Source of the DNA: Desulfobacteraceae bacterium
Lineage (GTDB): Bacteria > Desulfobacterota > Desulfobacteria > Desulfobacterales > JAABSP01
DNA: 64,000 nt
Direction: 5' to 3'
Assembly (NCBI GenBank): GCA_011390135.1
Contig: JAABSZ010000001.1
Span: 13,312 to 77,311, forward strand
Part shown: in pieces, positions 20,300-36,079 of the stretch
How the letters are laid out: every line of letters begins with the position of its first letter
Numbering within the stretch: position 1 is the stretch's first letter
Position numbers and translations under genes: made by a program
The notes under the pieces: model-generated
Seen by the model: only the letters and a program-made list of their open reading frames with translations
Databases searched by the model: none
What the model was told of the DNA's origin: nothing

Positions 20300-20342
20300 T
20301 CCGTTTGTATGAATGATTGAATGGTTTGGAAAGGAGGATGTT

Positions 20343-21002: not shown

Positions 21003-21032
21003 CCCTTTTCATCGAAAAAAGAGGAGGTCTTC

Positions 21033-21506
21033 ATGAAAAAGCTTTTCTTCTTCCTTCTGCTTCTGCTGCTGTTCGGGTGCGAGACCACAGGAGATCCACG
21101 CCAGGGCGGGTTTTTCGGATGGAATGAGGGCAAGGCGCAACAGCGGCAGGGCAGCCTGAGAGGAACCCTTTCGGAGGAGGAGGACGCGGGGAGGAGGGAT
21201 AAAGCCGCTTCCGGAGAACTGGAAAGGGAGCGGCAGGCCCGGACCGCAGAGGAGGCGAGCCTGAGAAGTGATCTCGCTACGCTCGATGCGGATCTGAACC
21301 GGATTCAGCAGCAGATCCAAAGTGCGGAGGCCGGCACGGTTCAACAGCAGAGAAAGAAACAGAAGGCGCAGCAGGAACTGGCGAGGTTAAAGAAGCAGAA
21401 GGGGCAGATCCAGAAGAGCAGCCTTGCGGTTCAGCAGAAGAAGGAGAAAATCGAAATGCTCAACCGGGAGATCGAAAGCCTTCTACAGATGGTTTCAAAC
21501 CTATGA
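21033..21506 (+). CDS. Small coiled-coil lipoprotein
   Basis: Lipobox LLFGC followed by an E/Q/R/K-rich helical sequence. RBS gaggagg. Confidence 0.6.
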   Translation: MKKLFFFLLLLLLFGCETTGDPRQGGFFGWNEGKAQQRQGSLRGTLSEEEDAGRRDKAASGELERERQARTAEEASLRSDLATLDADLNRIQQQIQSAEAGTVQQQRKKQKAQQELARLKKQKGQIQKSSLAVQQKKEKIEMLNREIESLLQMVSNL

Positions 21507-22924: not shown

Positions 22925-22934
22925 AAAATCCCTT

Positions 22935-24851
22935 ATGAAAAAGCCGACAGCCCGATTCCTCTGTTTTGTCCTTTCCGCGATCCTGACGGCCCTTCTCCTT
23001 GCGGCTCGACTCCCTGCCCGCGCTTACGGAGAAAGCTGGACCGACGCGCCGGAGATGCTTCTGTATTATGAAGCCATGACCAAAATCGCCTCGCGCGCGC
23101 TGGATCAGCCTTCCCGACGGGAGGTGGTGCAGAAATCCCTGAACGCCTATCTGCAGAGCATCGATCCTTTCTCCAACTATCTGACACCGGAAGCGTATAC
23201 AGCTTTCAAGGCATCCATGAAGGGCGACTTTGTCGGCATCGGTATGGAGATCGAAAAGAACGGGGCCGGTAAGATCATCTGTCTGCCCTATCCGGATCAA
23301 CCGGCCTATGGGGCCGGAATCCGGGCCGGGGATATCCTGGAAAAAGTGGAAGGGGTTTCGGTTTCGGGAAAATCCGTCTTTGAAGTCGCTGCCATGACAA
23401 AGGGGGAGGAGGGAACATCGGTGCTGTTGACGATCCGCTCCGGAATGGGGGGGCGGCAGAAGGATCTTCGCATCAGTCGAACATCGGTTCATGTAAAGTC
23501 CGTTGAAGTGAACCGGATGGAGGGAATTCCGGTGATCCGGATCAAATATTTCGGAACCGGAACCCAGCGGGAGCTGAAACTCGCCCTTTCGGGGCTGGGC
23601 CCGTCCGCGCCCCTGGTGATCGATCTTCGGGACAATCCCGGGGGGGATCTCAATGCCGGCATCGATTCGGCCATGCTGTTCCTGGAAAAGGGCAAGACCA
23701 TCGTGACAGTTGAAAAGACCGATGAAAGCTTTCCCTATATGAGTTTGGGGAACATCATCAACGCAGCATCTCCGCTCTACCTGTGGCAGAACCGGGGAAC
23801 CGCGAGCGCCGGGGAGGTTTTTATCGCAGCCCTCACCGACAACGATCGGGCCGTCTCCGTCGGGGAGAGAACCTATGGAAAGGGCACTATCCAGGAGATC
23901 ATTCCCTTAAGCGACAGTTCCGCCATATTCCTGACCACGGGCCGGCTCGTAATTCCAAACGGTGAAAAGTATCACGGCAGGGGGCTGGCTCCGACCCATC
24001 CCCTGGGGCCTTCAGAACTGGGGGATGCGGATTATCTGTCACGGGTAAAGGAACTGATGGGCGGGAATAAGGAAAAGCCGAATGCTTCGGCGGGCGAGGG
24101 ACGCCGGGATTTACAGAAAAGCGTATCGCTCAGAACCGTTTCCAAAAGAGAGACCGTTGAAAAAGCGGTTCCTGAAATCGTTGTGGCCGTTAATCCGAAG
24201 CAAAATTATCTGATATGCTTTAAAAAGCGCCATGCTGCAAAAGAGGAGGCCGAGATCTGGGCCTCGGTGGTCCGGAATTCCCTAAGCGATGCCGGCCGCC
24301 AATTCCTGATGCGTACCGCCGGAGCAGACGGCGACGGCCAAGGGTTTATGGTCTGTCTGGGCCCCTATGAAACGGCCCGGGATGCCCGGAAACGGGGGGA
24401 TACCGTGGCCCATGCCATGAAGGAGAAGGTGTTCGTAAGACAGATTGCGCCGGGAGAAAACGACCGAATCCGGAAGCATCGGGATGCTTCGTTCCCATCG
24501 AACAACGACGACAGGGAGCAGTGGTATATCCAGATTCTTTCCTCGACCCATAGAGATCCGATGATCGATCGATTCAAAAGCCTTTCAGATGTTTTGCGGG
24601 AAAGGGGAATCGACACGGTTCTTCAGATATCGACGGAAAAGGTGAATCAGGAGACGCTGCTGGACAGGAGATACATCGAAGAGCAGGGGATTGCGGCCAT
24701 TCTGGTGGAAGAGGGTGATGCGGATTTGACCCGATATAAGATACTGGTGGGCCCCTATGTTCACAAGGATGATGATCTTCTGCAGAAACTGGTGAAGGAT
24801 GGCCTGATCGATGCCGAATCCTTCTGGGTTAAGCCGATTTCAATGAAGTGA
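22935..24851 (+). CDS. S41 family C-terminal processing peptidase (PDZ + S41) fused to two SPOR-like repeats
   Basis: PDZ GIGMEIEKNG..GIRAGDILEKVEG. S41 motifs DLRDNPGG, NRGTASAGE, TYGKGT. The C-terminal ~200 aa contains two units with a SPOR-like pattern (..FMVCLGPYETARDARK.., ..YKILVGPYVHKDD..); the SPOR call is tentative. Confidence 0.75.
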   Translation: MKKPTARFLCFVLSAILTALLLAARLPARAYGESWTDAPEMLLYYEAMTKIASRALDQPSRREVVQKSLNAYLQSIDPFSNYLTPEAYTAFKASMKGDFVGIGMEIEKNGAGKIICLPYPDQPAYGAGIRAGDILEKVEGVSVSGKSVFEVAAMTKGEEGTSVLLTIRSGMGGRQKDLRISRTSVHVKSVEVNRMEGIPVIRIKYFGTGTQRELKLALSGLGPSAPLVIDLRDNPGGDLNAGIDSAMLFLEKGKTIVTVEKTDESFPYMSLGNIINAASPLYLWQNRGTASAGEVFIAALTDNDRAVSVGERTYGKGTIQEIIPLSDSSAIFLTTGRLVIPNGEKYHGRGLAPTHPLGPSELGDADYLSRVKELMGGNKEKPNASAGEGRRDLQKSVSLRTVSKRETVEKAVPEIVVAVNPKQNYLICFKKRHAAKEEAEIWASVVRNSLSDAGRQFLMRTAGADGDGQGFMVCLGPYETARDARKRGDTVAHAMKEKVFVRQIAPGENDRIRKHRDASFPSNNDDREQWYIQILSSTHRDPMIDRFKSLSDVLRERGIDTVLQISTEKVNQETLLDRRYIEEQGIAAILVEEGDADLTRYKILVGPYVHKDDDLLQKLVKDGLIDAESFWVKPISMK

Positions 24852-24867: not shown

Positions 24868-26079
24868 TTATTTGAAATCAAAGCTCTTTTTGACCAACTG
24901 ATCCGGTAGAATGGTAAAAGTTCTGGTCTCGTCGATTCCCAGCTCCCGATTGACGAACCGGACAATAATGTTTCCAGCGGGCAGTTTCAGCTTGGCTTTC
25001 GGGGTTCTTCCGTATGCTTTGCCGTTGATGTATATCTCGGTCCAGGGCTTTGAAACGATATTGAGATAACCGTCTCCTTTCGGTTTGGGCCGAGGAACAC
25101 TTATCTGACGAATCTCGGCCGGTCGAGCAATGGCAAAGGTTCCTTCATAATCCCGGGTATTGTCCCTTTCATCCCATACCCGAACCCGATACCGGTGAAT
25201 GCCGTCGGCCAATCCCTCTGTTGACAGGGCTTCCTCCACTGTTTCCGACTTTCCTTCAACCGCCCATTCCCTCGTGATATCCGTTCCTTCCAAGATGAAG
25301 TAGAGCGCCTTCAGCCCCCGGTCATCCATTGCTTTGATTTTGAAGCGAATCTTCTCCCCCTGCTGATATTCGGGCGCTATACCGATGACCTCGGCCGTCG
25401 GCTTTACGGCATCGACCGGCGGGACCACGGCAAGGGTGCCTTCGTAGTCCCGGAAATTGCCGGTTTCATCCGATACCCGAACCTGATACCGATAGACCCC
25501 CTCAGCCCATTCCCGGGTTGAAAAAGAGTCTTCCACGGATGCCGATTTTCCTTCCAATACCCATTCTGCTTTTATATCCGTTTTTTCCACGGAAAAGGAG
25601 AGGCTTTTCAATGCCCGATTGTCCTGGGCAGTAATCTTGATCCGGGCCATCTCTCCTTGCGGATAACGCCCCTGTATCCGGCTCATTTCCGCAGATGGGG
25701 GAAGGGGATCGGCCGATATCAGGGCATTGTTGAATCGCTCTGTGAAAGCGGGGGGGAGATCTTCTGCAATGGCGCGGATATCCTCGATGCCTGCGGCCGG
25801 ATATATCGAGATCAGATTCCGGATATAGGCATCGGCCCCGCCGAAATTCCGGTATGCGATCTCGATCAGGGCCAGGTAGACGAGCGCCTTTTGAATGACG
25901 GCATCTTCATGCTTTTCCGCCGACAGCAGAACCAGGATCTCTTTGGCCTTTTCAAATCGTGCGGACTGATAATGTTCGACCGCATCGGCAAGAGATGCCT
26001 CTCCGTCCGAAGCTGGGCTGTACCCAGTTGAAATCAGAAGGAAAATCGTGGCAACAGCAAGAATAGGGGCTCGTTTCAA
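24868..26079 (-). CDS. Secreted protein: TPR-like N-domain + two Ig-like repeats + C-terminal PEGA domain
   Basis: Signal peptide present. Two ~90-aa repeats (..ITAQDNRALKSLSFSVE..GVYRYQVRVSDETGN.. and ..IKAMDDRGLKALYFILE..GIHRYRVRVWDERDN..). PEGA-like GYLNIVSKPWTEIYINGKAYGRTPKAKLKLPAGNIIVRFV. Confidence 0.65.
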   Translation of the reverse strand: MKRAPILAVATIFLLISTGYSPASDGEASLADAVEHYQSARFEKAKEILVLLSAEKHEDAVIQKALVYLALIEIAYRNFGGADAYIRNLISIYPAAGIEDIRAIAEDLPPAFTERFNNALISADPLPPSAEMSRIQGRYPQGEMARIKITAQDNRALKSLSFSVEKTDIKAEWVLEGKSASVEDSFSTREWAEGVYRYQVRVSDETGNFRDYEGTLAVVPPVDAVKPTAEVIGIAPEYQQGEKIRFKIKAMDDRGLKALYFILEGTDITREWAVEGKSETVEEALSTEGLADGIHRYRVRVWDERDNTRDYEGTFAIARPAEIRQISVPRPKPKGDGYLNIVSKPWTEIYINGKAYGRTPKAKLKLPAGNIIVRFVNRELGIDETRTFTILPDQLVKKSFDFK

Positions 26080-26095
26080 TGTGCATTCCTGTTCC

Positions 26096-27856
26096 TTACC
26101 GGTTCCATTTGAAGCTGACGCGCGTCAACTGGTCCGGTTCAACGGTTACGATCTTGGTCTCGTCGATACCATGCTGATTGTTTACGAATCTAATTCGAAT
26201 CTTTCCGGCCTTGAGCTTCAGATTGGCCAGGGGTGTACTTCCCACCGATTTTTCGTCGATATAGACCTGGGTCCAGGGGCTCGTAAAGATATTGACCTGG
26301 CCGTAGGCAGAATCCTTAAGAACGAAACTGCCCATATATTCCTTGGTATTTTTCGCCCCGTCCTCCAGGGTGAGGTAGTAGGGATAGACGCCCGGACGCC
26401 ACCCGTCGGTGGAAAAGGAGTCCTCGAATTCGGCGGAAGGCCCGCTGATCTGCCAGGATTTCCGGATTTCCGAATTCCTGACATTGAAAACGATCCGGCT
26501 AAGATCCTTGTCATCTTCGGCGGTGATCTGGTATTCTACGGTTTCGCCCGCAACATAGCTCTCCCTGATTTGCCGGATGCTTCCGGTGGGCGGTTGGGTA
26601 TCGGCAGGTGATGGCCTCCGATCGATGGGCTTCCGGATGCTGAAGCTTCCTTCGGAGATGGCGGTATTTCCGGCTTTATCGGCCACTTTCAGGATATAGC
26701 TGTAATCGCCGGGGGGCCAGCCGTCCGTTGAAACCGTATATTCTATATCTTCGAAGGTGCCGAAGAGCTGCAGGGGCTTTTCCACAGGCCTGCCCTCGAT
26801 CTCCAGAAGGAGACTTTCCAGGGCCTGATCGTCTTGGGCAAAGATGGAAAAATGGATCGATTGACCCGGCGAATAGGAAGCCTCGACGCCCCTGACCGAG
26901 ATTTCGGGCCTTCTGGTATCGGCTTCCGGCTGATCGGGGGGCGCGGTTGGAGGCGGTTGGTGAGTAAGGCGTGACGGCTCTTTTCTTTCAAATAGAAGAT
27001 AGGCGCCGGCCGCCAAAAAGAGCAGCAGCAAAAGGATGGCCGCGATGAAAAGGCCGGCGCGGGATTTTCGGGGCGTATCCTTTTCCGTGATCTCCTCCCC
27101 GGTATTTCCGCCGATGAAGCGGGGATGATCCCGGTCCGGCGCAGGGGTATCGGGAGGAACCCCGAAGGTGCCCCCTGATACGGAGATGATTCGTTTGAGA
27201 TAGGTGGAACGGATGTCGATCTCTCCGAAGAGGATCATCTTCTCCTTGAGCCCGTCAACCTCGAGATGAACGATATTCGATCCGGGATTCAGGCCGGGGG
27301 TGATGATGCTCAACCCATCGATATCCGTTTCCAGGGCGCAGGAGACCGGAACCGCCATCTCGAAGGCAAAGCAGTTTTTCCGGTGCGGAACCACAGGCCA
27401 GAGGTTGAGTACATCCGGGTAGTCCCAGATCCCGCCCTCGTTGATCAGCCCTTCCACGGTCCCCTTTACGATGATGTTCTCCAGCTCGACCCGGATACCC
27501 TTTTTGACCTGTAGTGCCAGAGATTGCGCGCCCTTTCCCCCGCGGGAAACCGTAACGGTGCCGGAAACATCTGCCTGATCGACGATCAGCGCCAGGTTTC
27601 CGGCCTCCTTCTCTTTTTCCGTGGGAGATGTGACCTCGATCCGCAAATTCCGGATTCTGACCCGGGGAGCATTGACGGTAAGAACCGGCCCGGCCGTCGC
27701 CCATAATGTGCTGCCGTTTCCGTCGATGATCAAAGGCTTGTCGATCACTACCGGCCCCATATATTCATTGAACTCGAGCGAAAGGGTTTCAAACTCGTTC
27801 AGCTCGTCGATTCCGGCCTGGAGGGATAGATTTTGATTCATTGTTTTTTCGGTCAT
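26096..27856 (-). CDS. Bitopic membrane protein: cytoplasmic beta-rich domain of about 280 aa, TM, Pro-rich linker, two Ig-like repeats and a PEGA domain
   Basis: TM LFIAAILLLLLFLAAGAYLLF. Periplasmic repeats are paralogous to those of 24868..26079. PEGA GQVNIFTSPWTQVYIDEKSVGSTPLANLKLKAGKIRIRFV. ATGA overlap with the kinase gene. Confidence 0.65.
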   Translation of the reverse strand: MTEKTMNQNLSLQAGIDELNEFETLSLEFNEYMGPVVIDKPLIIDGNGSTLWATAGPVLTVNAPRVRIRNLRIEVTSPTEKEKEAGNLALIVDQADVSGTVTVSRGGKGAQSLALQVKKGIRVELENIIVKGTVEGLINEGGIWDYPDVLNLWPVVPHRKNCFAFEMAVPVSCALETDIDGLSIITPGLNPGSNIVHLEVDGLKEKMILFGEIDIRSTYLKRIISVSGGTFGVPPDTPAPDRDHPRFIGGNTGEEITEKDTPRKSRAGLFIAAILLLLLFLAAGAYLLFERKEPSRLTHQPPPTAPPDQPEADTRRPEISVRGVEASYSPGQSIHFSIFAQDDQALESLLLEIEGRPVEKPLQLFGTFEDIEYTVSTDGWPPGDYSYILKVADKAGNTAISEGSFSIRKPIDRRPSPADTQPPTGSIRQIRESYVAGETVEYQITAEDDKDLSRIVFNVRNSEIRKSWQISGPSAEFEDSFSTDGWRPGVYPYYLTLEDGAKNTKEYMGSFVLKDSAYGQVNIFTSPWTQVYIDEKSVGSTPLANLKLKAGKIRIRFVNNQHGIDETKIVTVEPDQLTRVSFKWNR

Positions 27857-29292
27857 TTCGGATCGTGAAAATCAGTGGGTAAAAATTGAAACAGAGCCAG
27901 CCGGCCCTGGGGCGGATCATGGAGCTGCATGGATGTTCCCTCGACGATTTCGGCTCTACGGCCGGGGAGGATCGATTTCCCGGAGGAAGAGCGCATCTTC
28001 TCTCTTCCCCTGTTTTCAAATCGCCATTTTCCGTTCTCCAGAAAAAAGGCGCCGACCGCCTCGCTGCCGCCGGAGAGTCCCTGGGGCGGGGAGACGTCCA
28101 GCCGTCCATGCCATTCATGGAGTTCTCTTCGATCCCAGAGCGTCAGGTAGCGTTCGTCCGATATGTACTGCCCCTGCTTGAATCCCCTGAAAAGATGCAT
28201 GAGCAGGATCGGATCTTCAGGCTTCCAGCCGCAGAAAGGGCACATGAGGGAAAGGCCCCTCCGGCAGGCGAACCATTGGTGCCAGCAGTCGGGATTCCTG
28301 CAGGGATGGAGGATGTCCAGCGTCAATGTCAGGGCATCCACCCATTCATAGGCCGTCGGTCGAAGATAGGGATCTGTCAGCCCTTCGGTAAAGGCTCTTG
28401 TAAAGAGGGGGGAGAGGTAAGGGCCCAGCCGGTCCAGCCGAACATCGAGATCATCGGGGCGGTTGGACGCGTCATGGGGATGTTCGATGAACAGAGCCTT
28501 TTCTCCGAACATGAGCCGGTCATCCTCTTCGGGATCATCGGAGTGGATCTTCTTTCCCTCCAGAGGATGGCGCATCAGCAGCAGTTGGTATAGAATTACC
28601 GTCAGAGAGTGGAGGTCTGTTCGAATATCGGGCAGTTGCTTCTCCCTGTGGCCCAGGGGCAGCAAGGATGTGGCCATGACCTCCGGTGCGATATAGCCCC
28701 GGGTTCCCAGAACCTTGGGGGGAAAGATTCCCCGGACCACCAGGGAGTCGATGTCGATGAGAATGCAGGCCGAGCTGCGGGGGGCCATGAGGATGTTGTT
28801 TCCGGAAAGATCCGAATGGGCAAGCCCTGCCGCATGCATCCGGCCCACGGCCCGGGCAAGGTGCCGGCCGATCTGAATCCGGGTGCGCAGGTCTCCCCTT
28901 TCATCGGCAGGCAGGGTCAGGGTCAGCCTTTTACTGGTGAACCACCGCCCCTTCTTCTCTCCCCTGCTGTCAGAGAAATAGTACTTGTCCGGAAACCTGG
29001 GGCAGAGAATCCCCATCTCCGGGGAGGTGACGATAGCGATGGGCCAGCAGAAATGGTCTTTCCAGAAATCACCGTTCTTCGGGTCCAGCGTCGGGTTATA
29101 CTGGTCGAGGATCAGCCGAAGCCGTTTGAGCCGCTCCGGATCCCTGATCCCCTCCTCATCCCGATAGAATCCGATGACCAGATCCTCTCTTTCCGTGGGA
29201 AAGAAGATCTTTTCGGTTCCCTCGCCGATCTTCTGATCGCAGCGGTATCGAATCTTTTTGCCGTTGTCGAGATGTGCCTGGGCCAGGGTCAT
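27853..29292 (-). CDS. Atypical Ser/Thr protein-kinase-like protein with a C-terminal zinc ribbon and an unknown domain
   Basis: KIGEGTEKIFF (degenerate G-loop), catalytic loop LAHSDLSGNNIL, LIDIDSL (DFG-equivalent), GTRGYIAPEV (APE motif), then CRNPDC...CPFC. No TM segment. Confidence 0.7.
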   Translation of the reverse strand: MTLAQAHLDNGKKIRYRCDQKIGEGTEKIFFPTEREDLVIGFYRDEEGIRDPERLKRLRLILDQYNPTLDPKNGDFWKDHFCWPIAIVTSPEMGILCPRFPDKYYFSDSRGEKKGRWFTSKRLTLTLPADERGDLRTRIQIGRHLARAVGRMHAAGLAHSDLSGNNILMAPRSSACILIDIDSLVVRGIFPPKVLGTRGYIAPEVMATSLLPLGHREKQLPDIRTDLHSLTVILYQLLLMRHPLEGKKIHSDDPEEDDRLMFGEKALFIEHPHDASNRPDDLDVRLDRLGPYLSPLFTRAFTEGLTDPYLRPTAYEWVDALTLTLDILHPCRNPDCWHQWFACRRGLSLMCPFCGWKPEDPILLMHLFRGFKQGQYISDERYLTLWDRRELHEWHGRLDVSPPQGLSGGSEAVGAFFLENGKWRFENRGREKMRSSSGKSILPGRRAEIVEGTSMQLHDPPQGRLALFQFLPTDFHDPK

Positions 29293-29308
29293 CGGAAAAA
29301 GCGTACCT

Positions 29309-30013
29309 TCAGGAAAGAATGATTTTGATGTTGGAGTAACAAGAATCCATGTTCGACAGGCCGTCGCTCTGGCTGTCGCTTCGATGGCTTGCCGTGGTCA
29401 TGGTCGCACCGAGAAAATCGATGAACTGGTTGAAGGTCTCCTGGGTGAGGTCCTTCATCAGCACCACGGTCCGGGTGACTTTCTTCAACATGTCGATGTT
29501 GACATCGATTCCCACCCCGCAGGCCACAAAGTTCATCTCCTTTGATACGGCTGCGGCGACGGCTTCCCAGTTGTCGGTGGGCCTGCCGTCGGACATCAGA
29601 AAGACCAGGGGACGCCAGTCTCCCTTCTCTCCACGCTCTGCGGATTGCTTGCGCACCTCCTGATCAACGCACTCCCTGAGAAAGATAAGGGCTCGTCCCA
29701 GGTTGGAGCTGCCCCCGATCTTGAAGGGAGCGCCCCGGTATTCGCCGAGGGGACAGAGAGGGATCATCTGGCGGGGAATCGAATCGAAGGAGATGATGCT
29801 GAACCAGACGATGTCGCTGGTATATGGATTGGTGCGAAGCTTGACCGTCAGGTTCTTGAACCCCTGGTCCACCGCTTCGATGGCGTCGCCGTTCATGGAA
29901 CTGGAGCAATCCACGAGCATGTAAACGGGCAGCCGTCGGATGTTAGGGTCGATTTCCGGTCTGATCACTTCACTCCTTCCTTTGTTCTTTATGCATACTT
30001 TCGTTTCAGCCAT
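29309..30013 (-). CDS. Cytoplasmic vWA domain protein (TerY-like)
   Basis: MIDAS VYMLVDCSSSMNG, ..WFSIISFDS.., ..VFLMSDGRPTD... No signal peptide. The start lies 25 nt inside the upstream ABC gene. Confidence 0.75.
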   Translation of the reverse strand: MAETKVCIKNKGRSEVIRPEIDPNIRRLPVYMLVDCSSSMNGDAIEAVDQGFKNLTVKLRTNPYTSDIVWFSIISFDSIPRQMIPLCPLGEYRGAPFKIGGSSNLGRALIFLRECVDQEVRKQSAERGEKGDWRPLVFLMSDGRPTDNWEAVAAAVSKEMNFVACGVGIDVNIDMLKKVTRTVVLMKDLTQETFNQFIDFLGATMTTASHRSDSQSDGLSNMDSCYSNIKIILS

Positions 30014-32277
30014 ATATAGGCCAGCAAAAACGGGATGAAGCCGTGCAGCAGGATCATCAGCAGGGCGTGTGCGTCGCCCGGAAAAGCGGAAAAGAAGGTG
30101 GATGACCGGCCGAAAAAGACCTCGGCAATGCTCTGTTGATCAAACCGGACATAGGAGAAGGGGTCCCGGTTTGCCAGGTCGGTGACCTGTAACAAAACCT
30201 TGCCGCCGTTCATGGCATCGTAGCTTAGCATGGCCTTGAATGCCCATTTCTGGAGGATGAAATCGGTAAAAAAACGGGTTATGTCCCCGGTTAAGTACTT
30301 GACCGGCCGGATGAGGCCGCCGAGAAAGAGCTGGGGAATTATGATGATCGGAACCAGGATCAGCGATGCCTGTTCGGTTCTGACCATCGCCGATATCATC
30401 AGGCTCAATGCCGATGCTGCTGCGGAGGTGATGATCAGGACCCCCCAGAACTGCATAAAGGTTTTGGGCGGAACGATGATCAGAAACGAGCAGATGATGG
30501 CCAGCAGAATGCCGGTCTGAAGGATCGCGATAAGGATGAGAACGGCGAGTTTTGAGCAGAGATAGGGAAAGATGTGCAGCGCACTTCTCGTCTCCCGTTT
30601 GAGGATGTACTTTTCCGAGACGATCTCCCTGGATCCGTTGACTACGCCGAACCAGACGGCCGATGCGATCATCAGAAAGAGGATGGATACCCGTCTCTGG
30701 GCTGCGTTTTCCGCGATGAGATCGGCTTTCTCCTCCTGGTCCGCCCGTTCAAGGCTCCTTTCGAAGGCCGGCTCGATAATGAAGGTCTGCCGCTCTGCAA
30801 CGGCTTCATCATACAGTCCGGTAAAATGAAACCAGGTTCTGGCCAGCCGGTCCATGCCCGTATAGTCCCCGGAGTATCCCCTGAAGGTCGCGACGAGCAG
30901 CAGTGAGATGATCAGAACCTGTAGCAGCAGAAGGGCGAGGCTCATTTTGTCGGCCAGCTTGATACGGAGGTTCCGCTGCAGCAGCAGGCCGAACTGGTGG
31001 AGCCGATGGCCGCGCTTTTTTTGAGATCTCCCCGTGGATGCGGTTTCCATTTCCGCTGGATCCTCCTCTGCCGGTTCGGTCTCAGCCCGTCTTGCAGCCT
31101 CCTCCTGATATATCTCTTCGGGGGGACGAGGCACCTCCCACTTATCCAGGACGCGCAGAACATATTCGGCCGGATTTCCGCCGGTCGGTTCGGACGAATA
31201 CCGGTTGAAATAGGAGAAGACCTCATCGACGGGGCCGAAATAGGCGACCTTTCCCCCGCGGTTGAGCAGCAGCAGTTCGTCCAGAAGATAGAAGACCGCC
31301 TCGCTGGGCTGATGGATCGTCATGAGCATTGTCACCTTCCGGTCCCTGCACATCTCCTTGAGCAGTCCGACAACATGCTCCGAGTCGACGGAGGAGAGAC
31401 CGGATGTCGGTTCATCCAAGAAGAGGAGCAGCGGGTTGCGGACAAGTTCATGGGCAATGTTGGCCCGGCGCCGTTCCCCGCCGCTCAACCCTCTTTTTTC
31501 CGGAGAGCCGATGGGGGTTTTCAGGAAGCCGTCAAGCCGTTCTTCGGGAAAGCCCATTCTTTCGAGAACGCTCCGGATCTGATTTTCCCGGACATCGGCT
31601 CTCATGTCCGGATAGTTGAGCCGCAGACAGTAGTGAAGGGATTGGCGGACGGTCAGCTCCGGGATCAGGGTATCGTCCTGGGGCACATCCCCGATGATGT
31701 CCTTGATGAGGCCGAAGCTTTTATGCACATTGAAACTGCCGATCATAACCCGACCCTCGTCGGGTACGAGATAGCCGCTCAGCAGGTTGAGCAGAACGGT
31801 TTTGCCCGCGCCGCTGGGGCCCATGACGCCGATAAATGACCCGGCTTTTGCTCTCAGAGATACATTTTCCGTCAGAACCTTCAGGGGAGGAAAGAGCCGG
31901 CGTTCTTTTCGGTTCGGAATAGCGTAACGGAGATTTTCGGCATAAAGCCCCACCCGGTCTCTTCCCAGCAGAAGCCGCGGCTTGATCTCCATGGGAATCT
32001 TGCCCAGTCGGACATCATCATTCAATGTGATCTCGTGCCATGCTCTGGAGCCGATCTTATGGCCGTTTACGAAGGTTCCCTGACGGGACCTGAGATCCTT
32101 GAGAAAGAGCCGGTCTTCCACGCGTTTCAAAACGGCATGCCGGGGGGAGATCAACTCTGCAAGATCCGGAAATGTCTGGTCGCATTCCGGGCTTGCACCA
32201 AATACGATCTCAAAATCTCCCTTCCGTCGAATTTTTCGTTCAATGGCCTGATTTTTATCTGAAGACATCTTCACCAT
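29989..32277 (-). CDS. FHA domain-fused ABC transporter (ATPase + ABC-2/ABCG-type permease in one polypeptide)
   Basis: N-terminal FHA (..ISPRHAVLKRVEDRLFLKDLRSRQGTFVNGHKI..DDVRLG). Walker A GPSGAGKT, signature LSGGERRR, Walker B LLFLDEPTSGL. C-terminal region with 5-6 TMs. Confidence 0.85.
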   Translation of the reverse strand: MVKMSSDKNQAIERKIRRKGDFEIVFGASPECDQTFPDLAELISPRHAVLKRVEDRLFLKDLRSRQGTFVNGHKIGSRAWHEITLNDDVRLGKIPMEIKPRLLLGRDRVGLYAENLRYAIPNRKERRLFPPLKVLTENVSLRAKAGSFIGVMGPSGAGKTVLLNLLSGYLVPDEGRVMIGSFNVHKSFGLIKDIIGDVPQDDTLIPELTVRQSLHYCLRLNYPDMRADVRENQIRSVLERMGFPEERLDGFLKTPIGSPEKRGLSGGERRRANIAHELVRNPLLLFLDEPTSGLSSVDSEHVVGLLKEMCRDRKVTMLMTIHQPSEAVFYLLDELLLLNRGGKVAYFGPVDEVFSYFNRYSSEPTGGNPAEYVLRVLDKWEVPRPPEEIYQEEAARRAETEPAEEDPAEMETASTGRSQKKRGHRLHQFGLLLQRNLRIKLADKMSLALLLLQVLIISLLLVATFRGYSGDYTGMDRLARTWFHFTGLYDEAVAERQTFIIEPAFERSLERADQEEKADLIAENAAQRRVSILFLMIASAVWFGVVNGSREIVSEKYILKRETRSALHIFPYLCSKLAVLILIAILQTGILLAIICSFLIIVPPKTFMQFWGVLIITSAAASALSLMISAMVRTEQASLILVPIIIIPQLFLGGLIRPVKYLTGDITRFFTDFILQKWAFKAMLSYDAMNGGKVLLQVTDLANRDPFSYVRFDQQSIAEVFFGRSSTFFSAFPGDAHALLMILLHGFIPFLLAYIWLKRKYA

Positions 32278-32936
32278 CCTACAAAGAGCGCTTCGGATTG
32301 AACTTTCGGAGCATAGTACAGCTCGAATCGAATATCTACAGGGAAAAATGACCAGCCATCATTCTTTTCGATGCCCGCTCTCACCTGTCCGATCAGGGCG
32401 GTCTTTTTCCGGGAGCCCGGAAGCCCCAGATAATTGATCAGTTTGAAGATGACATGATCTCTCATGTTCCGCAGCCTCGGTAGGGGAATCACGGCTCGAA
32501 CCGAGGCCTCCCCCGGTTTTCTGCATCCGCCGGCCCCGGTCTTCAGGCATCCCGGAATCTTGAAATCGATAGGTTCCGTCGTACCCAGATCAAGGCTTGT
32601 ATAGGGCAGGATACCCATGTCCGGATGATCGATATCGACATTATCCGCCGTTCCATCCGTTTCCTCCCCAAGCGAACCGATGGGGATCGGAGGACGCTCT
32701 TCGGGATTGATGATCACATGGAAGCGGCCACTTTCGACCTTGATCCCTTTGTCGTCATCATTGATGAGGGTCAGTGATATCTCTATGGAATTGGTCGATT
32801 CAAGAATTCGAATCGCATCGATCGATCGGATGGAGATATTGTCGGCAAGCCTCATGAAATTGGGTTGCGCCCACAGGTAACCCTCCTGTATCAAAAGGAA
32901 GCTCAATGCCGTCATAAGAATTTGAACTATTTTCAT
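32271..32936 (-). CDS. Secreted protein, member 1 of a four-member paralog family (LEA_2/WHy-like, tentative)
   Basis: ATG at 32934-36 gives the signal peptide MKIVQILMTALSFLLIQEGYLWA|QPN. Shares DNISIRSI..IEISLTLINDDD.. and ..GQVRAGIEKNDGWSFFPVDIRFELYYAP with 33180, 34508 and 35316. The stop overlaps the ABC gene start (ATGGTGA). Confidence 0.6.
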   Translation of the reverse strand: MKIVQILMTALSFLLIQEGYLWAQPNFMRLADNISIRSIDAIRILESTNSIEISLTLINDDDKGIKVESGRFHVIINPEERPPIPIGSLGEETDGTADNVDIDHPDMGILPYTSLDLGTTEPIDFKIPGCLKTGAGGCRKPGEASVRAVIPLPRLRNMRDHVIFKLINYLGLPGSRKKTALIGQVRAGIEKNDGWSFFPVDIRFELYYAPKVQSEALFVGW

Positions 32937-33179
32937 GCCTGTACCCGCTGCAAAATTATAAAGGAGAAACGATGTCCGTGCCGAAAAAGGGCACAAATGA
33001 TAATGTTGTCGATCTTTCTTTCATTGACAGAAAAAAAGAGGTTTGTCAAATTTTTGTTCCCCTTGTCGGTTTCTATTCCAAAAAACGAAAATGTCTATTG
33101 AAAAATCTTTCTAATGTTGATAAGAGATGTCAAAAGGATTCTTTTCCCATAACCGTTTTAGCCATGGGGACAGGTAAAG

Positions 33180-34505
33180 ATGAAAAAAACAGCGTCAATA
33201 GGGATCGTTTTCATAGTTTTGTCTGCTATAGGGTTTTCTGCCCCTGCGGCAGGGCAGACGCCCGAGACGGATTTGATCGACAATATCAAAATTACCGCCA
33301 TAGAGCGGATGGCCGTGACGGACGAAAAGGAGGGAACCTTTCTGGACCTGACCGTCTATATCGAAAACAGAAATGACCGGCTTGTCCGATTCGGCAGGGG
33401 AATGTTCACCTTTTACCTTCGCATAGATAAGAAAAATGAAACCGATCCTGTAACAACGGCGGAGATGCTGGGGACCGACAACCGTTCCCGCAGGATCGTT
33501 TTATATCCGGTGGCGGATTTTAAAGGTCCGGGAGAGCCGGGGGACAACAGCGTCGATTTCAAGGTGGACCTTGGGAATGAGCAGGAAAAAATTCTTCGCT
33601 CCCTCAAGCGGATTGTAAACGCAATGGGAGACCCTCCGGACACTCGGCCGATCTTTTTCATCGATGGCAGGTTCCATCTGGGGGTCAAATCGGACAAGGG
33701 ATGGAGTTCGATTCCGGCTCGTATCAATTGGGCGTTCAAGCCTGTTTTTCTGGAAGAGGCGATTCTGACGGATGCAAAAGTGCCGATCTCCTTTCCGGAT
33801 AAGAATGAGGATATCATTAAAGCCTTTATAGACACTAGATCTGAATTCCCTTCATCTACAACGAATACCTACGATATCAATACAACGGGAGACGCAAATG
33901 CGGATACGGCCTCCGCTGCGGCTTCATCTACAACGAATACCTACGCTAGGACTACAACCCTTCCAAAAGGAGACTCAACTTCAACAACAATTGAAACAGA
34001 CACTACGACGACCACTTTTCCGGAAGACTTGCCGCCGGAAGCACCATTTACAACAACAATTGCCACAACGACGACCACCACCACCCTTCCCGGAGACTTG
34101 CCGCCGGTATCACCGCCTGCAACAACAATTGATATCAATTATGAAGCCGCACCAAAGATCGGAGCCCTGATCAACTTCGATTATAACTCCGACGTCATTC
34201 GGGATGAATCTTATCCCCTGCTCAATGAATACGGCCAGGCATTGAACGATAAAAGACTCTCCAACGTGGTCATCATCATTGCCGGCCATGCCAGCGACGA
34301 GGGCTCTGATGTCTATAATCAGGACCTTTCGGAAAGAAGAGCCGCATCGGTAAAGAGATATCTTGTGGAAAAGCAGAAAATCGATCCTAATAGACTCATT
34401 TCGACCGGATACGGGGAATCAAAACCCCTTGTCTCCAATGCTGATCCGGATGGACGGAAATTGAACCGTCGGGTCGAGTTCATCCCTTACCATTGGCTAA
34501 ATTAA
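33180..34505 (+). CDS. Paralog family member 2 fused through a Thr/Pro-rich linker to an OmpA C-terminal peptidoglycan-binding domain
   Basis: Signal peptide ..APAAG|QTPE. N-domain DNIKITAIERMAV..LDLTVYIENRNDRLVRF.. ..IDGRFHLGVKSDKGWSSIPARINWAFKP. OmpA motifs FDYNSDVI, GHASDEGSDVYNQDLSERRA, NRRVEF. Confidence 0.8.
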   Translation: MKKTASIGIVFIVLSAIGFSAPAAGQTPETDLIDNIKITAIERMAVTDEKEGTFLDLTVYIENRNDRLVRFGRGMFTFYLRIDKKNETDPVTTAEMLGTDNRSRRIVLYPVADFKGPGEPGDNSVDFKVDLGNEQEKILRSLKRIVNAMGDPPDTRPIFFIDGRFHLGVKSDKGWSSIPARINWAFKPVFLEEAILTDAKVPISFPDKNEDIIKAFIDTRSEFPSSTTNTYDINTTGDANADTASAAASSTTNTYARTTTLPKGDSTSTTIETDTTTTTFPEDLPPEAPFTTTIATTTTTTTLPGDLPPVSPPATTIDINYEAAPKIGALINFDYNSDVIRDESYPLLNEYGQALNDKRLSNVVIIIAGHASDEGSDVYNQDLSERRAASVKRYLVEKQKIDPNRLISTGYGESKPLVSNADPDGRKLNRRVEFIPYHWLN

Positions 34506-34507
34506 AA

Positions 34508-35230
34508 ATGAAGGATGCAATGGAACCTGTATATAGAACTGTTTGCAAGAAATGTTATACCTGTCTTTTTTTTCTTCCAGTGATGCTGCTGTCCGTTCTT
34601 TTTTCCGGATATGCGAATGCCTACGGCAATACGATTATGGATGACATCGATATCCTGATGATCAAAGATATGACCCTTCGACAGGAGAAGAACGATTTCT
34701 TTCTCGATGTTGTTTTCGCCGTGCGGAATAGGGGAAATACTGTCAGATTTCAGCAGAGTCGGTTTGATATTTCCTTTGTTCAGGAAGATTCAAAGGAAAT
34801 TCCGCTGGGAACAACAGCAAAAGAAGATCTCCTTCTTTCTGCCGAAACCGATGATCCGACGGATGTCCGTTTTACGGCAGCGATCGGTGATATCGAATCG
34901 CTCCGACTTCATCTGATCTCATCGGATGAAATGTCGGAGCTGATGATGGCCTCGAACCCGAAGGTCAATATGCACATCCGGGGAGGCTTTGATCTCAAGC
35001 TCAGGGCCGGACAGGGATGGATGTCTCAGCCGGGCTATAGAATCGACTGGATTCTGCCGTTGGAGATTCCAAGGGAGATCTTCGTCCAGACATATAAGGC
35101 AATCGAAGATGCAGCCGATCGAAAGGAAGATCCTTCCATCCAGAGAAAGGGAGACTGGCTCGATGATACGGCCTTTGAGACCGAAGAAAAACCGGTTCGG
35201 TTGGAAAAGGATTCGAATAGCGTAGAATAG
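34508..35230 (+). CDS. Paralog family member 3 (secreted)
   Basis: ATG at 34508 (a TTG at 34493 is also possible). DDIDILMIKDMTL..LDVVFAVRNRGNTVRF.. ..IRGGFDLKLRAGQGWMSQPGYRIDWILP. Confidence 0.6.
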   Translation: MKDAMEPVYRTVCKKCYTCLFFLPVMLLSVLFSGYANAYGNTIMDDIDILMIKDMTLRQEKNDFFLDVVFAVRNRGNTVRFQQSRFDISFVQEDSKEIPLGTTAKEDLLLSAETDDPTDVRFTAAIGDIESLRLHLISSDEMSELMMASNPKVNMHIRGGFDLKLRAGQGWMSQPGYRIDWILPLEIPREIFVQTYKAIEDAADRKEDPSIQRKGDWLDDTAFETEEKPVRLEKDSNSVE

Positions 35231-35315
35231 TGAAGGGAGGAGGTGGTGAGGCGCTTTTGCAGGTATTGGCCGGTATTTTTAATTACGATTTAGATTTCCA
35301 AAGAAAGGAAAAAAA

Positions 35316-35999
35316 ATGACAAAAGGGCTGATGGCAACCGGAATGATTTTTTGCCTGATTTTGGGGCTGGCTACAGGGGCAGCAGCTCAACAGAATGTTA
35401 TCGACAATCTCAAGATCGAGTCAATCAAAAGTGTTCAGGTAAGAGAGGAGGCCGATAATTTCTATCTGGACATCAAGGTCAATATCACCAACAGCAATGA
35501 TCGGTTGATCCGCCTCAGAAACGGCGATTTCATCTTCTCTATCCAGTCCGAATACATTGGAAAGGTCACCATCGGTGAACTCTCACACAAGGCTGTTGAA
35601 GGCGGATCTAGCTGCAATGTCGTGGTCAAGCAGGAGGGAGATGAGGCCGATAAGGAGAAGGAGATCGGTGTGGCCGACCCTCCCTTTTTCGTTGCCGAAG
35701 ACTGCCATACTGACAACGAGGAGATCTTTCTGAAGCCGGGCGGAGACGGTCAGCCCAATATCGTGATGTTTCATGTCAATATCGGCAAGAGCCATCAGCA
35801 GGCATCCAGTGTCTTGATGCATATCATGAACTGCATCGGCTATCCGGCCATCAAAAAACCCAATATCAACATCAAGGGGAAATTTGAACTCGGGATCAAG
35901 TCCGACAAGGGCTGGAGCATGGTGAGAGACGTCATCATCGAATGGATCTTCATCCCGGAGATCCAGGATAAGGTCAACTTCATGACCGCTGAAAACTGA
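35316..35999 (+). CDS. Paralog family member 4 (secreted)
   Basis: Signal peptide ..ATGAAA|QQNV. DNLKIESIKSVQV..LDIKVNITNSNDRLIRL.. ..IKGKFELGIKSDKGWSMVRDVIIEWIFIP. Confidence 0.65.
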   Translation: MTKGLMATGMIFCLILGLATGAAAQQNVIDNLKIESIKSVQVREEADNFYLDIKVNITNSNDRLIRLRNGDFIFSIQSEYIGKVTIGELSHKAVEGGSSCNVVVKQEGDEADKEKEIGVADPPFFVAEDCHTDNEEIFLKPGGDGQPNIVMFHVNIGKSHQQASSVLMHIMNCIGYPAIKKPNINIKGKFELGIKSDKGWSMVRDVIIEWIFIPEIQDKVNFMTAEN

Positions 36000-36026: not shown

Positions 36027-36079
36027 ACAGGCGGCTGTTACCGATTTCTTGGATTTCCGGCCGGCCGCCTGTTTTATTT
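36027..36079 (+). terminator. Putative intrinsic terminator between convergent genes
   Basis: ACAGGCGGC (36027-35) pairs with GCCGCCTGT (36064-72) and is followed by TTTATTT. The loop is long (28 nt), hence moderate confidence. Confidence 0.4.

What the first reader, a model, noticed from the sequence alone, without database searches (positions are those of the whole stretch)
24868..32936. Six-gene operon coupling an atypical kinase and a TerY-like vWA protein to an FHA-gated ABCG-type exporter and Ig/PEGA envelope proteins
Seen: minus-strand genes with overlaps or tiny gaps. The order is LEA_2-like secreted protein (32271..32936), FHA+ABC ATPase+ABC-2 permease fusion (29989..32277), cytoplasmic vWA with an intact DxSxS MIDAS (29309..30013), and a soluble kinase-like protein (27853..29292). 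These are followed by a bitopic membrane protein with periplasmic Ig x2 + PEGA (26096..27856, ATGA-coupled to the kinase) and a secreted TPR-like + Ig x2 + PEGA paralog (24868..26079). Established: FHA domains bind pThr. The mycobacterial exporter Rv1747 is an FHA-bearing ABCG-type transporter regulated by the kinase PknF. vWA(TerY)+kinase+PP2C triads have been noted in comparative genomics of Ter systems. Inference: this is a phospho-switch controlling an exporter. The soluble kinase would be tethered to the envelope through its translationally coupled PEGA membrane partner. No PP2C phosphatase is present, so the off-switch is unknown. The combination FHA-ABC + TerY-vWA + PEGA partner is unusual.
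Basis: partly seen in the sequence, partly recalled or inferred. Interest (0 to 1): 0.8.

Follow-up and report, generated by a model that had tools for sequence, protein, structure and literature searches.

The report
TerY-P signalling module wired to exporter
This is a real six-gene operon in which a known but poorly understood bacterial signalling trio (TerY vWA protein, phosphatase, zinc-ribbon kinase) has lost its phosphatase and sits next to an FHA-tagged ABC exporter and cell-envelope proteins, which points to a first testable output for that signalling trio.

Summary
The six minus-strand genes are real, tightly packed and conserved. The vWA protein and the kinase belong to the known TerY-P triad. 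The vWA is 39% identical to plasmid TerY. The kinase is a full-length homolog (36% identity, Zn ribbon included) of the kinase in enterobacterial ter clusters. In relatives a PP2C gene lies between vWA and kinase: 76 of 80 genome loci, and all seven syntenic Desulfobacterales loci that cover the junction. Here only 16 nt lie there and no PP2C is found in 64 kb, so the phosphatase was lost secondarily. The FHA-ABCG exporter is followed by the vWA gene in all nine syntenic loci, named sources all Desulfobacterales; ~40%-identical FHA-ABC relatives lack the module. The cytoplasmic N-terminal ~230 aa of the Ig/PEGA membrane protein is an unannotated domain found downstream of the kinase in 62 of 80 loci across phyla, fused elsewhere to TerD, vWA, WD40 or beta-helix. 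This supports a kinase-partner link. Two weaknesses: the FHA subfamily lacks the canonical phosphate-binding Arg and usually the Asn, and the "LEA_2" label failed every test. That protein belongs to a small unannotated family, often fused to OmpA-C, with three paralogs in a conserved divergent operon (33180-35999). Verdict: a new variant of a known kind; the regulatory mechanism is plausible but unproven.

The parts
32271..32936 (-). Secreted ~220-aa protein, first gene of the operon. It belongs to a small unannotated family and is not demonstrably LEA_2.
   Evidence: ORF with signal-peptide-like N-terminus. No Pfam, NCBIfam or PDB-profile hit. The family has 195 representative clusters among 1.84 billion proteins, and 23 of 80 scanned members carry OmpA-C. 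One or two copies lie upstream of the FHA-ABC gene in L002, L005, L082 (fragment only), L083 and L086 by tblastn. A similar-sized gene sits there in L087 (weak alignment) and L089 (position only).
32955..32984 (-). Promoter-like site (TCGGCA-18-TATAAT, 10/12) upstream of the ATG at 32936
   Evidence: Consensus scan only. It lies in the divergent intergenic region 32937-33179.
29989..32277 (-). FHA + ABC ATPase + ABC-2 permease fusion (ABCG-type half transporter)
   Evidence: Pfam FHA, ABC_tran and ABC2_membrane. TIGR00955 at 2e-70. Top solved relatives are Cdr1, Pdr5, ABCG25 and ABCG2. About six TM segments. Orthologs at >=48% identity come from Desulfobacterales sources. The FHA lacks the canonical Arg and Asn.
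29309..29968 (-). Cytoplasmic TerY-type vWA protein with intact MIDAS. The ORF runs up to 30013, but the likely start is GTG 29968.
   Evidence: Pfam VWA. 39% identity over 86% of its length to plasmid genes annotated TerY. MIDAS residues invariant in A8. Shine-Dalgarno sequence and GTG start. Immediately follows the FHA-ABC gene in all nine syntenic loci, window included.
29293..29308 (-). 16-nt vWA-kinase spacer, at the position where relatives carry a ~300-aa PP2C gene
   Evidence: Sequence. PP2C_2 genes sit at this position in L002, L005, L082, L083, L086, L088 and L089. No PP2C similarity anywhere in the window. A separately assembled Logan contig (L001) shows the same 16-nt junction.
27853..29292 (-). 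Soluble TerY-P-type Ser/Thr kinase with a C-terminal Cys4 zinc ribbon and a ~120-aa tail
   Evidence: Pfam Pkinase. Family invariants K28, H159-S-D161, N166, D180/D182, A-P-E204 and C331/C336/C351/C354 are all present. The ribbon matches the COX5B-type ribbon at E 0.01. 36% identity over 98% of its length to the kinase of enterobacterial ter clusters.
26096..27856 (-). Bitopic membrane protein: cytoplasmic TerY-P-associated N-domain (~1-250), one TM segment (~263-292), then periplasmic Ig-like x2 + PEGA
   Evidence: ATGA coupling to the kinase. TM scan. PEGA at 23.5 bits, above the 20.8 cut-off. N-domain homologs lie downstream of the kinase in 62 of 80 loci. AF2 model pLDDT 78.6: beta-rich, with an Ig/PapD-like C-terminal half.
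24868..26079 (-). Secreted paralog: helical (TPR-like) N-terminal region + Ig-like x2 + PEGA-like C-terminus
   Evidence: Big_13 at 2e-5 and PEGA at 20.3 bits, just under the cut-off. 33% identical to the periplasmic part of 26096-27856. Expanded to ~950 aa with more Ig repeats in L002.
33180..34505 (+). Divergently transcribed paralog of the first gene, fused to an OmpA-C peptidoglycan-binding domain
   Evidence: Pfam OmpA at residues 333-430. The N-terminal ~220 aa aligns with the family. Conserved on the divergent strand in L002, L082, L086 and L087.
34493..35230 (+). Second paralog of the same secreted family
   Evidence: Alignment A3/A4. Orthologs in L082, L086 and L087.
35316..35999 (+). 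Third paralog of the same secreted family
   Evidence: Alignment A3/A4. 45-49% identical orthologs in L082 and L086.

Best explanation
This is an envelope-directed derivative of the TerY-P phospho-signalling module.

Shown:
- The vWA (TerY) and the zinc-ribbon Ser/Thr kinase are orthologs of the TerY-P triad.
- In this Desulfobacterales lineage the triad is embedded in one operon. The order is: secreted paralog(s), FHA-ABCG exporter, TerY, PP2C, kinase, N-domain-TM-Ig-PEGA protein, secreted Ig/PEGA protein. A divergent operon of OmpA-linked paralogs sits opposite.
- This genome has lost PP2C.

Inferred:
- The bitopic protein is the kinase's membrane partner. Its cytoplasmic N-domain is the conserved fourth component of most TerY-P loci and docks or is phosphorylated by the kinase. 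Its periplasmic Ig/PEGA part reports on, or anchors to, the envelope.
- The kinase phosphorylates TerY and/or the exporter.
- TerY is always encoded directly after the exporter gene. It acts as the adaptor that the exporter's N-terminal FHA-like domain engages, and this tunes export of an unknown lipid or glycopolymer-type substrate. That substrate would be handled in the periplasm by the secreted or OmpA-anchored paralog family.
- Without PP2C the switch here is either constitutively on or reset by a phosphatase encoded elsewhere.
For: - TerY identity.
- Kinase identity, Zn ribbon and intact family invariants. This matches the published definition of the triad: vWA + PP2C + STK fused to a zinc ribbon (PMC10542128).
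- Operon tightness.
- Gene order conserved in eight further loci, with FHA-ABC followed by vWA every time.
- The N-domain lies downstream on the same strand in 62 of 80 loci. It is adjacent in 27. It is fused to TerD, vWA, TM+WD40, beta-helix or TM+Ig/PEGA.
- In 42 loci a P-type cation ATPase follows the kinase, so pairing of the triad with a membrane transporter recurs.
- Precedents exist for FHA + vWA + kinase (+PP2C) modules and for an FHA-bearing ABC exporter regulated by an operon kinase: ArnA/ArnB (PMC6509490), DRA0331-0334 (10.64898/2026.01.23.701218) and Rv1747/PknF (PMC3138270).
Against: - The FHA subfamily lacks the phosphate-binding Arg (Gly-Ser/Ala instead of Gly-Arg) and mostly has Gln for the NGT Asn. 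Canonical pThr recognition is therefore doubtful.
- No PP2C is present here.
- FHA domains are not general partners of the triad: 6 of 81 loci, window included.
- The N-domain is absent from the enterobacterial ter plasmids.
- No substrate, phospho-site or interaction has been shown.
- All functional links rest on synteny and domain logic.
Confidence: 0.45

Rival explanations
1. A cytoplasmic metal-sensing and homeostasis module. TerY's MIDAS site senses a divalent cation, as proposed for Ter systems. The kinase relays this to a transporter, and the ABC exporter (a P-type cation ATPase in Firmicutes) removes a metal or metal chelate. The Ig/PEGA proteins are accessory.
For: - The MIDAS site is intact and invariant.
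- The triad is described as a predicted metal-sensing switch (PMC10542128).
- In Firmicutes loci it sits with a P-type cation ATPase, TerD, TelA and the Ter biosynthetic genes.
- The N-domain is fused to Ca-binding-type TerD domains.
Against: - ABCG/ABC-2 exporters typically move lipids, polymers or drugs, not ions (family knowledge).
- No TerD, TerC or TelA gene was seen among the window genes scanned (18686-39280).
- The lineage-specific additions are all envelope proteins: OmpA-C, PEGA and Ig.
Confidence: 0.2
2. An anti-phage or conflict system. As in other TerY-P contexts (ter clusters, CoCoNuT, stand-alone TerY-P-like defence), the triad senses infection. The exporter and envelope proteins are then the effector, for example by membrane perturbation or receptor masking.
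For: - TerY-P modules are linked to restriction and defence systems, and TerY-P-like modules protect against phage (PMC10542128; PMC4978471).
- The kinase hits PADLOC kinase models PD-T4-6, mad6 and MkoA.
- L089 has an nSTAND2 NTPase nearby.
Against: - No nuclease, restriction or mobile-element genes lie beside the operon.
- PADLOC finds nothing for the vWA, and the kinase hits cover the generic kinase core.
- Stable synteny with envelope genes across several Desulfobacterales genera looks like vertical, housekeeping-type inheritance.
Confidence: 0.12
3. Co-location without coupling. The FHA-like domain is a phospho-independent protein-protein module, like the YscD/EssC-type FHA folds. The exporter works independently of the TerY-kinase genes, which happen to share an operon.
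For: - The canonical Arg and Asn are missing family-wide.
- The domain also scores near the cut-off for Yop-YscD_cpl (32.4 bits against 33.2).
- FHA-ABC relatives at ~40% identity have no TerY-P neighbours.
Against: - The vWA gene follows the FHA-ABC gene in 9 of 9 syntenic loci, window included, with 20-40 nt spacers in most. This includes a locus where the other genes are frameshifted.
- Such strict pairing over ~50% sequence divergence is hard to explain without a functional link.
Confidence: 0.13
4. A decaying locus. Loss of PP2C marks an inactivated system on its way to pseudogenisation.
For: - PP2C is missing here.
- PP2C is split in L082, and several genes are fragmented in L088.
- An orphan kinase without partners exists in L090.
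Against: - All six window ORFs are full length relative to orthologs.
- They keep every family-invariant catalytic or MIDAS residue.
- The deletion is clean at gene boundaries.
- The L088 fragmentation may be long-read frameshift error.
Confidence: 0.05

Closest known systems
TerY-P (TerY-phosphorylation) triad of Ter stress-response/defence clusters (Anantharaman, Iyer & Aravind 2012, as summarised in PMC10542128 and PMC4978471). Example: the Klebsiella plasmid NZ_LR890236.1 cluster VWA-TerD-VWA-TerY-C-PP2C-kinase (L091).
   Same: - TerY-type vWA with MIDAS (39% identity).
- Kinase homologous over its full length, C-terminal zinc ribbon included (36% identity, 98% coverage).
- Same gene order: vWA upstream of the kinase.
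- The syntenic relatives that cover the junction keep PP2C between them.
   Different: - No PP2C in this window.
- No TerD, TerC, TelA or DNA-processing partners.
- Instead there is an FHA-ABCG exporter, a membrane N-domain-Ig-PEGA protein and secreted envelope proteins.
- There is a single vWA rather than two to four.
Mycobacterium tuberculosis Rv1747 / PknF (an FHA-bearing ABC exporter positively regulated by its operon kinase; PMC3138270, PMC8339232)
   Same: - N-terminal FHA, then NBD, then ABC-2-type permease in one polypeptide.
- A Ser/Thr kinase gene in the same operon.
   Different: - One FHA instead of two, and no long phospho-acceptor linker.
- The FHA lacks the canonical Arg and Asn.
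- The kinase is a soluble TerY-P zinc-ribbon type, not a Hanks receptor kinase.
- A vWA adaptor gene is interposed.
- FHA similarity to Rv1747 is weak (E 0.024).
FHA + vWA phospho-modules: Sulfolobus ArnA/ArnB (PMC6509490) and the Deinococcus DRA0331-0334 operon vWA-STPK-FHA-PP2C (10.64898/2026.01.23.701218)
   Same: - Co-encoded vWA protein, FHA domain and Ser/Thr kinase (and PP2C in relatives).
- In the Arn system the FHA protein binds the phosphorylated C-terminus of the vWA protein. This is the model proposed here for FHA-TerY.
   Different: - There the FHA is a stand-alone regulator of transcription or of kinases. Here it is fused to a transporter.
- No sequence orthology was shown.
- Those FHA domains are canonical.
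Firmicutes Ter neighbourhoods found here: vWA-PP2C-kinase-P-type cation ATPase-(N-domain+TerD)-TelA-PRTase/TRSP-StiP-C-C lyase-YceG
   Same: - Same kinase family and same N-domain partner.
- A membrane transporter gene lies next to the triad.
   Different: - The transporter is a P-type ATPase directly after the kinase.
- The N-domain is fused to TerD and is cytosolic.
- A full Ter metabolite-biosynthesis gene set is present.

Membership tests
TerY-P triad | TerY-like vWA protein with MIDAS motif | tested here: met
   Pfam VWA. 39% identity over 86% of its length to plasmid genes annotated TerY, in 2268 records. DxSxS and the downstream Asp are invariant.
TerY-P triad | Ser/Thr kinase fused C-terminally to a zinc ribbon | tested here: met
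   Pkinase hit. Invariant Cys4. Ribbon matches COX5B-type Zn ribbon at E 0.01. Full-length homolog of the ter-plasmid kinase.
TerY-P triad | PP2C-family phosphatase encoded with the vWA and kinase | tested here: not met
   Only 16 nt separate the vWA and kinase genes. tblastn with 69 PP2C queries finds nothing in the 64-kb window. PP2C is present in the seven syntenic loci that cover the junction. The rest of the genome is not available.
TerY-P triad | Genes adjacent and co-oriented (operon) | tested here: met
   Same strand, with a 16-nt gap.
Rv1747-type FHA-regulated ABC exporter | FHA domain(s) fused N-terminally to an NBD and an ABC-2 permease | tested here: met
   Pfam FHA at residues 24-92, ABC_tran at 137-292 and ABC2_membrane at 428-685. 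There is one FHA only.
Rv1747-type FHA-regulated ABC exporter | FHA with canonical pThr-binding residues (Gly-Arg, Ser-x-x-His, Asn of NGT) | tested here: not met
   Alignment to Rad53 FHA1: R70->Ala, N86->Pro, T106->Arg, N107->Gln; G69, S85 and H88 are kept. The subfamily consensus is LGS...ISPxH...SxQGT.
Rv1747-type FHA-regulated ABC exporter | Cognate kinase phosphorylates Thr residues that the FHA binds | not testable with these tools
   Needs kinase assays or phosphoproteomics. A partly conserved T-T-A-S stretch in the TerY tail (only the Ser is invariant) is a candidate only.
ABCG (ABC type V exporter) family | NBD-first order and closest similarity to ABCG/PDR/White transporters | tested here: met
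   TIGR00955 at 2e-70. The top PDB hits are Cdr1, Pdr5, ABCG25, ABCG2 and ABCG1.
LEA_2 / WHy domain (PF03168) | Match to the family model or fold | tested here: not met
   No Pfam or NCBIfam hit for the protein. None for 17 paralogs and orthologs, and none for 80 distant family members. The PDB profile search gave nothing. The fold could not be tested because the AF2 model had pLDDT 38.
PEGA domain (PF08308) | Score above Pfam's gathering threshold | tested here: met
   26096-27856 scores 23.5 bits against 20.8. 24868-26079 scores 20.3 bits, just below, but it is paralogous.
Stand-alone anti-phage TerY-P-like system / PADLOC defence models | Match to defence-system protein models beyond the generic kinase core | tested here: not met
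   PADLOC gives no hit for the vWA, the Ig/PEGA proteins or the first gene. Kinase hits (PD-T4-6, mad6, MkoA) cover only the catalytic core, and ABC hits are generic ATPase matches.

The most novel reading that the evidence does not exclude
The unannotated ~230-aa N-domain is a general fourth subunit of TerY-P systems. It physically couples the zinc-ribbon kinase to interchangeable sensor or effector modules: TerD, vWA, WD40, beta-helix, or a transmembrane Ig/PEGA ectodomain. In Desulfobacterales this turns TerY-P into a transmembrane envelope-sensing pathway whose output is an ABCG exporter. The exporter would be engaged through a non-canonical FHA domain that reads TerY rather than a classical pThr peptide. 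That would be the first defined input-output wiring for the TerY-P triad.
Probability: 0.25. Interest if true: 0.72.

Novelty: new variant of a known kind. Interest (0 to 1): 0.55.

Why it matters
TerY-P triads occur in thousands of plasmids and genomes. The plasmid collection alone holds 2268 records with the vWA and 2341 with the kinase. Yet their signal, substrates and output are unknown. This lineage offers an unusually legible version. The likely output (an ABC exporter) and the likely membrane partner are encoded in the same operon. There is also a natural phosphatase-less variant to compare with relatives that keep PP2C. The conserved, unannotated N-domain next to the kinase across phyla is a concrete candidate for the kinase's partner or substrate. 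It can be tested biochemically in any of these organisms.

Tried and rejected
- LEA_2 identity of the first gene. Pfam, NCBIfam, a PDB profile search, and a Pfam scan of 17 paralogs and of 80 distant members were all negative. AF2 on the four window paralogs failed (pLDDT 38), so the fold is unknown.
- Concatenated query. I joined the first gene and the N-domain into one query to recover homologs of both in the last word-indexed search. It returned only six N-domain proteins and no relatives of the first gene. This limited the depth of both structure-prediction alignments.
- Foldseek of the N-domain model. It found only generic Ig/PapD/ASH-like sandwiches for the C-terminal half (TM ~0.27). 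No functional lead came from it.
- PP2C elsewhere in the window. Nothing was found.
- Defence-system membership. PADLOC gives only generic kinase and ATPase matches.
- FHA as a general TerY-P partner. It is not: only 6 of 81 loci, window included.
- N-domain on enterobacterial ter plasmids. It is absent.
- FHA-like fold in the kinase tail. A weak similarity to Rad53 FHA1 (E 1.2) is not significant, and I did not rely on it.
- The 2012 Ter-systems paper could not be retrieved. What it says about extra partners of the triad is taken only from later papers.
- Orthology to E. coli YegI. The JGI name 'HhH protein with kinase domain' on some homologs is only a lead. This was not tested.

Full report
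**1.

The six minus-strand ORFs are at the stated coordinates.

Domain results:
- 29989-32277: FHA, ABC_tran and ABC2_membrane.
- 29309-30013: VWA.
- 27853-29292: a Pkinase C-lobe.
- 26096-27856: PEGA above threshold.
- 24868-26079: Big_13 and PEGA just below threshold.
- The ABC part is closest to ABCG/PDR transporters (TIGR00955 at 2e-70; PDB top hits Cdr1, Pdr5, ABCG25 and ABCG2).
- A hydropathy scan gives one TM segment in 26096-27856, about six in the ABC protein, and none in the kinase or vWA.

Junctions are tight:
- ATGA overlap between the kinase and the next gene.
- 16 nt between vWA and kinase.
- 16 nt between the last two genes.
- A promoter-like site (TCGGCA-18-TATAAT) lies just upstream of the ATG at 32936. 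This is a consensus match only.

One correction concerns the vWA start. It probably begins at GTG 29968, behind AAGGAAGGAG. This matches the N-termini of all orthologs, so the 25-nt overlap with the ABC gene is likely an ORF-calling artefact.

**2. The kinase and vWA are the known TerY-P triad, minus its phosphatase**

The kinase belongs to a large family of ~475-aa proteins conserved over their full length. 3195 proteins scored E <= 1e-3. The source names given for the listed hits include Desulfococcaceae, cyanobacteria, Planctomycetes, Abditibacterium and Parabeggiatoa.

The family has these invariant features:
- H-S-D161 and N166.
- D180-x-D182.
- A-P-E204.
- A Cys4 motif that matches COX5B-type zinc ribbons.

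The window protein keeps every invariant.

Against annotated plasmids:
- The kinase aligns over 98% of its length (36% identity) to the kinase of enterobacterial ter clusters, in 2341 records.
- The vWA aligns at 39% identity to genes annotated TerY, in 2268 records.
- One such cluster reads VWA-TerD-VWA-TerY-C-PP2C-kinase.

This is the arrangement published as the TerY-P triad: a TerY vWA, a PP2C, and an STK fused to a zinc ribbon (PMC10542128; PMC4978471).

I fetched 80 genome loci around relatives of the kinase.
- A PP2C_2 gene lies directly upstream of the kinase in all but a few.
- Only L017 and L051 lack it despite having enough flanking sequence.

The window has no PP2C similarity anywhere in 64 kb. 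A separately assembled Logan contig shows the same 16-nt junction.

**3. The exporter association is conserved but specific to one lineage**

FHA-ABC proteins at >=48% identity form about 20 clusters. All named sources are Desulfobacterales.

Eight further loci share the window's gene order: L002, L005, L082, L083, L086, L087, L088 and L089. The order is:
1. one or two copies of the secreted first gene;
2. FHA-ABC;
3. vWA;
4. PP2C;
5. kinase;
6. an N-domain protein;
7. Ig/PEGA/TPR proteins.

Details:
- The vWA directly follows the exporter gene in all nine loci, window included.
- PP2C is present in all seven loci that cover the vWA-kinase junction. It is split in L082.
- The contig of L087 ends after an SNase gene that follows the vWA.
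- L089, which encodes the closest kinase relative (59% identity), keeps PP2C.

The missing PP2C in the window is therefore a clean secondary deletion. All other genes are intact. FHA-ABC relatives at about 40% identity (L084, L085) have no TerY-P neighbours.

**4. A conserved fourth component**

The N-terminal ~230 aa of the 26096-27856 protein has no Pfam model. Its only hit is a weak NCBIfam match to the NosD N-terminus.

Distribution among the 80 loci:
- Homologs are found downstream of the kinase, on the same strand, in 62.
- They are adjacent in 27 and lie 0.7-9 kb away in 35. In Firmicutes they typically come after a P-type ATPase.
- Of the 18 loci without one, 12 have at most ~4 kb of sequence downstream of the kinase.

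The domain is fused to different partners in different lineages:
- TerD (L025, L043, L053, L006).
- vWA (L060).
- TM + WD40 (L027, L041).
- Right-handed beta-helix repeats (L010, L034).
- TM + Ig x2 + PEGA (the window).

An AF2 model built from a six-sequence alignment (pLDDT 78.6) is all-beta. Foldseek recognises only an Ig/PapD-like sandwich in its C-terminal half. The domain is absent from enterobacterial ter plasmids.

It does not show whether that partner is an anchor, a sensor or a substrate.

**5.

*The FHA domain.* HMMER aligns it to Rad53 FHA1 as follows:
- G27 = G69.
- A28 = R70.
- S-P-R-H = S85-N86-K87-H88.
- S-R-Q-G-T = S105-T106-N107-G108-T109.

Across 25 orthologs and relatives the consensus is LGS...ISPxHAALKR...SxQGT. 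Arg70 and Ser85 are the phosphate ligands in canonical FHA domains (established knowledge). Family-wide loss of the Arg, and frequent loss of the Asn, therefore make classical pThr binding doubtful. The domain also scores just under the cut-off for the phospho-independent YscD-type family.

*The first gene.* It is not demonstrably LEA_2.
- Pfam and NCBIfam give no hit.
- A PDB profile search gives no hit.
- Pfam scans of 17 paralogs and 80 distant members show no LEA_2.
- The AF2 model failed.

It belongs to a small family of 195 representative clusters among 1.84 billion proteins. 23 of the 80 scanned members carry an OmpA C-terminal domain.

Three paralogs lie in a divergent operon in the window:
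- 33180-34505, with OmpA-C.
- 34493-35230.
- 35316-35999.

That divergent operon is conserved in L002, L082, L086 and L087.

**6. Most likely mechanism (inference)**

This is a TerY-P phospho-signalling module recruited to the cell envelope.
- The bitopic N-domain-Ig-PEGA protein links the soluble kinase to the membrane and periplasm.
- TerY is strictly paired with the exporter gene. It is the probable adaptor read by the exporter's FHA-like domain.
- The output is modulation of an ABCG-type exporter. Its substrate is unknown, possibly a lipid or glycopolymer handled by the secreted or OmpA-anchored paralog family.

Published precedents:
- Rv1747/PknF (PMC3138270).
- ArnA(FHA)/ArnB(vWA), where the FHA protein binds the phosphorylated vWA C-terminus (PMC6509490).
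- The Deinococcus vWA-STPK-FHA-PP2C operon.

In 42 of the 80 loci a P-type cation ATPase follows the kinase. Pairing of the triad with a membrane transporter therefore recurs.

Rival readings are set out separately with their weights: metal sensing and efflux, a defence system, co-location without coupling, and a decaying locus.

**7. Novelty and score**

The triad, FHA-ABC fusions and FHA/vWA/kinase modules are each known. Four things appear new:
- Their conserved combination with envelope proteins in Desulfobacterales.
- The natural variant that lacks PP2C.
- The non-canonical FHA subfamily.
- The widespread unannotated N-domain partner.

I could not read the 2012 Ter-systems paper, so I cannot exclude prior mention of the N-domain. 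I rate the finding a new variant of a known kind, with interest 0.55. The locus still gives a testable handle on what TerY-P triads do, which remains an open question.

Noticed in passing
window 33180-35999 (+): A divergent three-gene operon encodes paralogs of the operon's first gene. One is fused to an OmpA-C peptidoglycan-binding domain. The operon is conserved opposite the FHA-ABC operon in L002, L082, L086 and L087.
   Followed up: yes
window 36049-36813 (+) versus 36079-37251 (-): Two long ORFs overlap on opposite strands. The minus-strand 390-aa ORF has homologs of its C-terminal ~100 aa in the TPR-like region of Ig/PEGA proteins of L002, L003, L082 and L086. It is therefore probably the real gene, and the 254-aa plus-strand ORF is probably spurious. 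A strong terminator-like hairpin at 37338-37311 (-) follows the AspRS gene.
   Followed up: partly
window 18686-20299 (+); L005 2890-3438; L083 4173-7502 and 18459-19319; L088 20259-end; L089 243-1079: Proteins with an FGE-sulfatase (SUMF1-like) domain recur next to the operon in several relatives. In L083 and L088 the domain is fused to PGAP1-like hydrolase and VWA domains. This may be another conserved neighbour.
   Followed up: no
window 20313-24851 (+): A convergent envelope gene set ends 16 nt from the stop of 24868-26079. It comprises a glycine-zipper protein, a protein with three PG_binding_1 repeats, and an S41 (PDZ) peptidase with a long C-terminal extension.
   Followed up: no
window 27853-29292 (-), residues 25-45: The family-invariant lysine is K28, in the glycine-rich loop/beta2 (GEGxxK). 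The usual beta3 'VAIK' position is variable (K/R/H/L; R in the window). This resembles WNK-type placement of the catalytic lysine. It is inferred from the alignment only.
   Followed up: partly
window 27853-28230 (-), kinase residues ~355-479: The ~120-aa tail after the zinc ribbon is conserved (W..N....G..V..G...L..G....LS..P.GRLA). It gives only a non-significant match to Rad53 FHA1 (E 1.2). Its fold is unknown.
   Followed up: partly
L082 12143-13097; L088 11342-14300: PP2C is split into two ORFs in L082. The vWA and kinase are fragmented in L088. This may be real decay or long-read frameshift errors.
   Followed up: no
L089 9022-17544: The closest relative's locus continues beyond the shared genes. 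It has a second ABC-2 exporter (915 aa), an nSTAND2 NTPase, and a 1029-aa protein combining FHA with Ig-like repeats.
   Followed up: no
L090 3168-5763: An orphan member of the same kinase clade (58% identity) lies next to a small PAS protein and RNase J, with no vWA, PP2C or exporter.
   Followed up: no
L017 5282-7357; L051: These are two other loci that lack PP2C among the 80. In L017 (Clostridiales) the vWA directly abuts the kinase, as in the window. L051 lacks both vWA and PP2C within +/-10 kb.
   Followed up: partly
L087 3908-4477 (-): A 189-aa ORF beside the divergent paralogs has a TerD-like sequence pattern (DFDLAAVYEDRKGNPGIVYFGDTGNP...). This was not checked against Pfam.
   Followed up: no
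window 6001-10000: GC content drops to 0.43-0.46, against about 0.55 for the rest of the window. This region was not examined.
   Followed up: no
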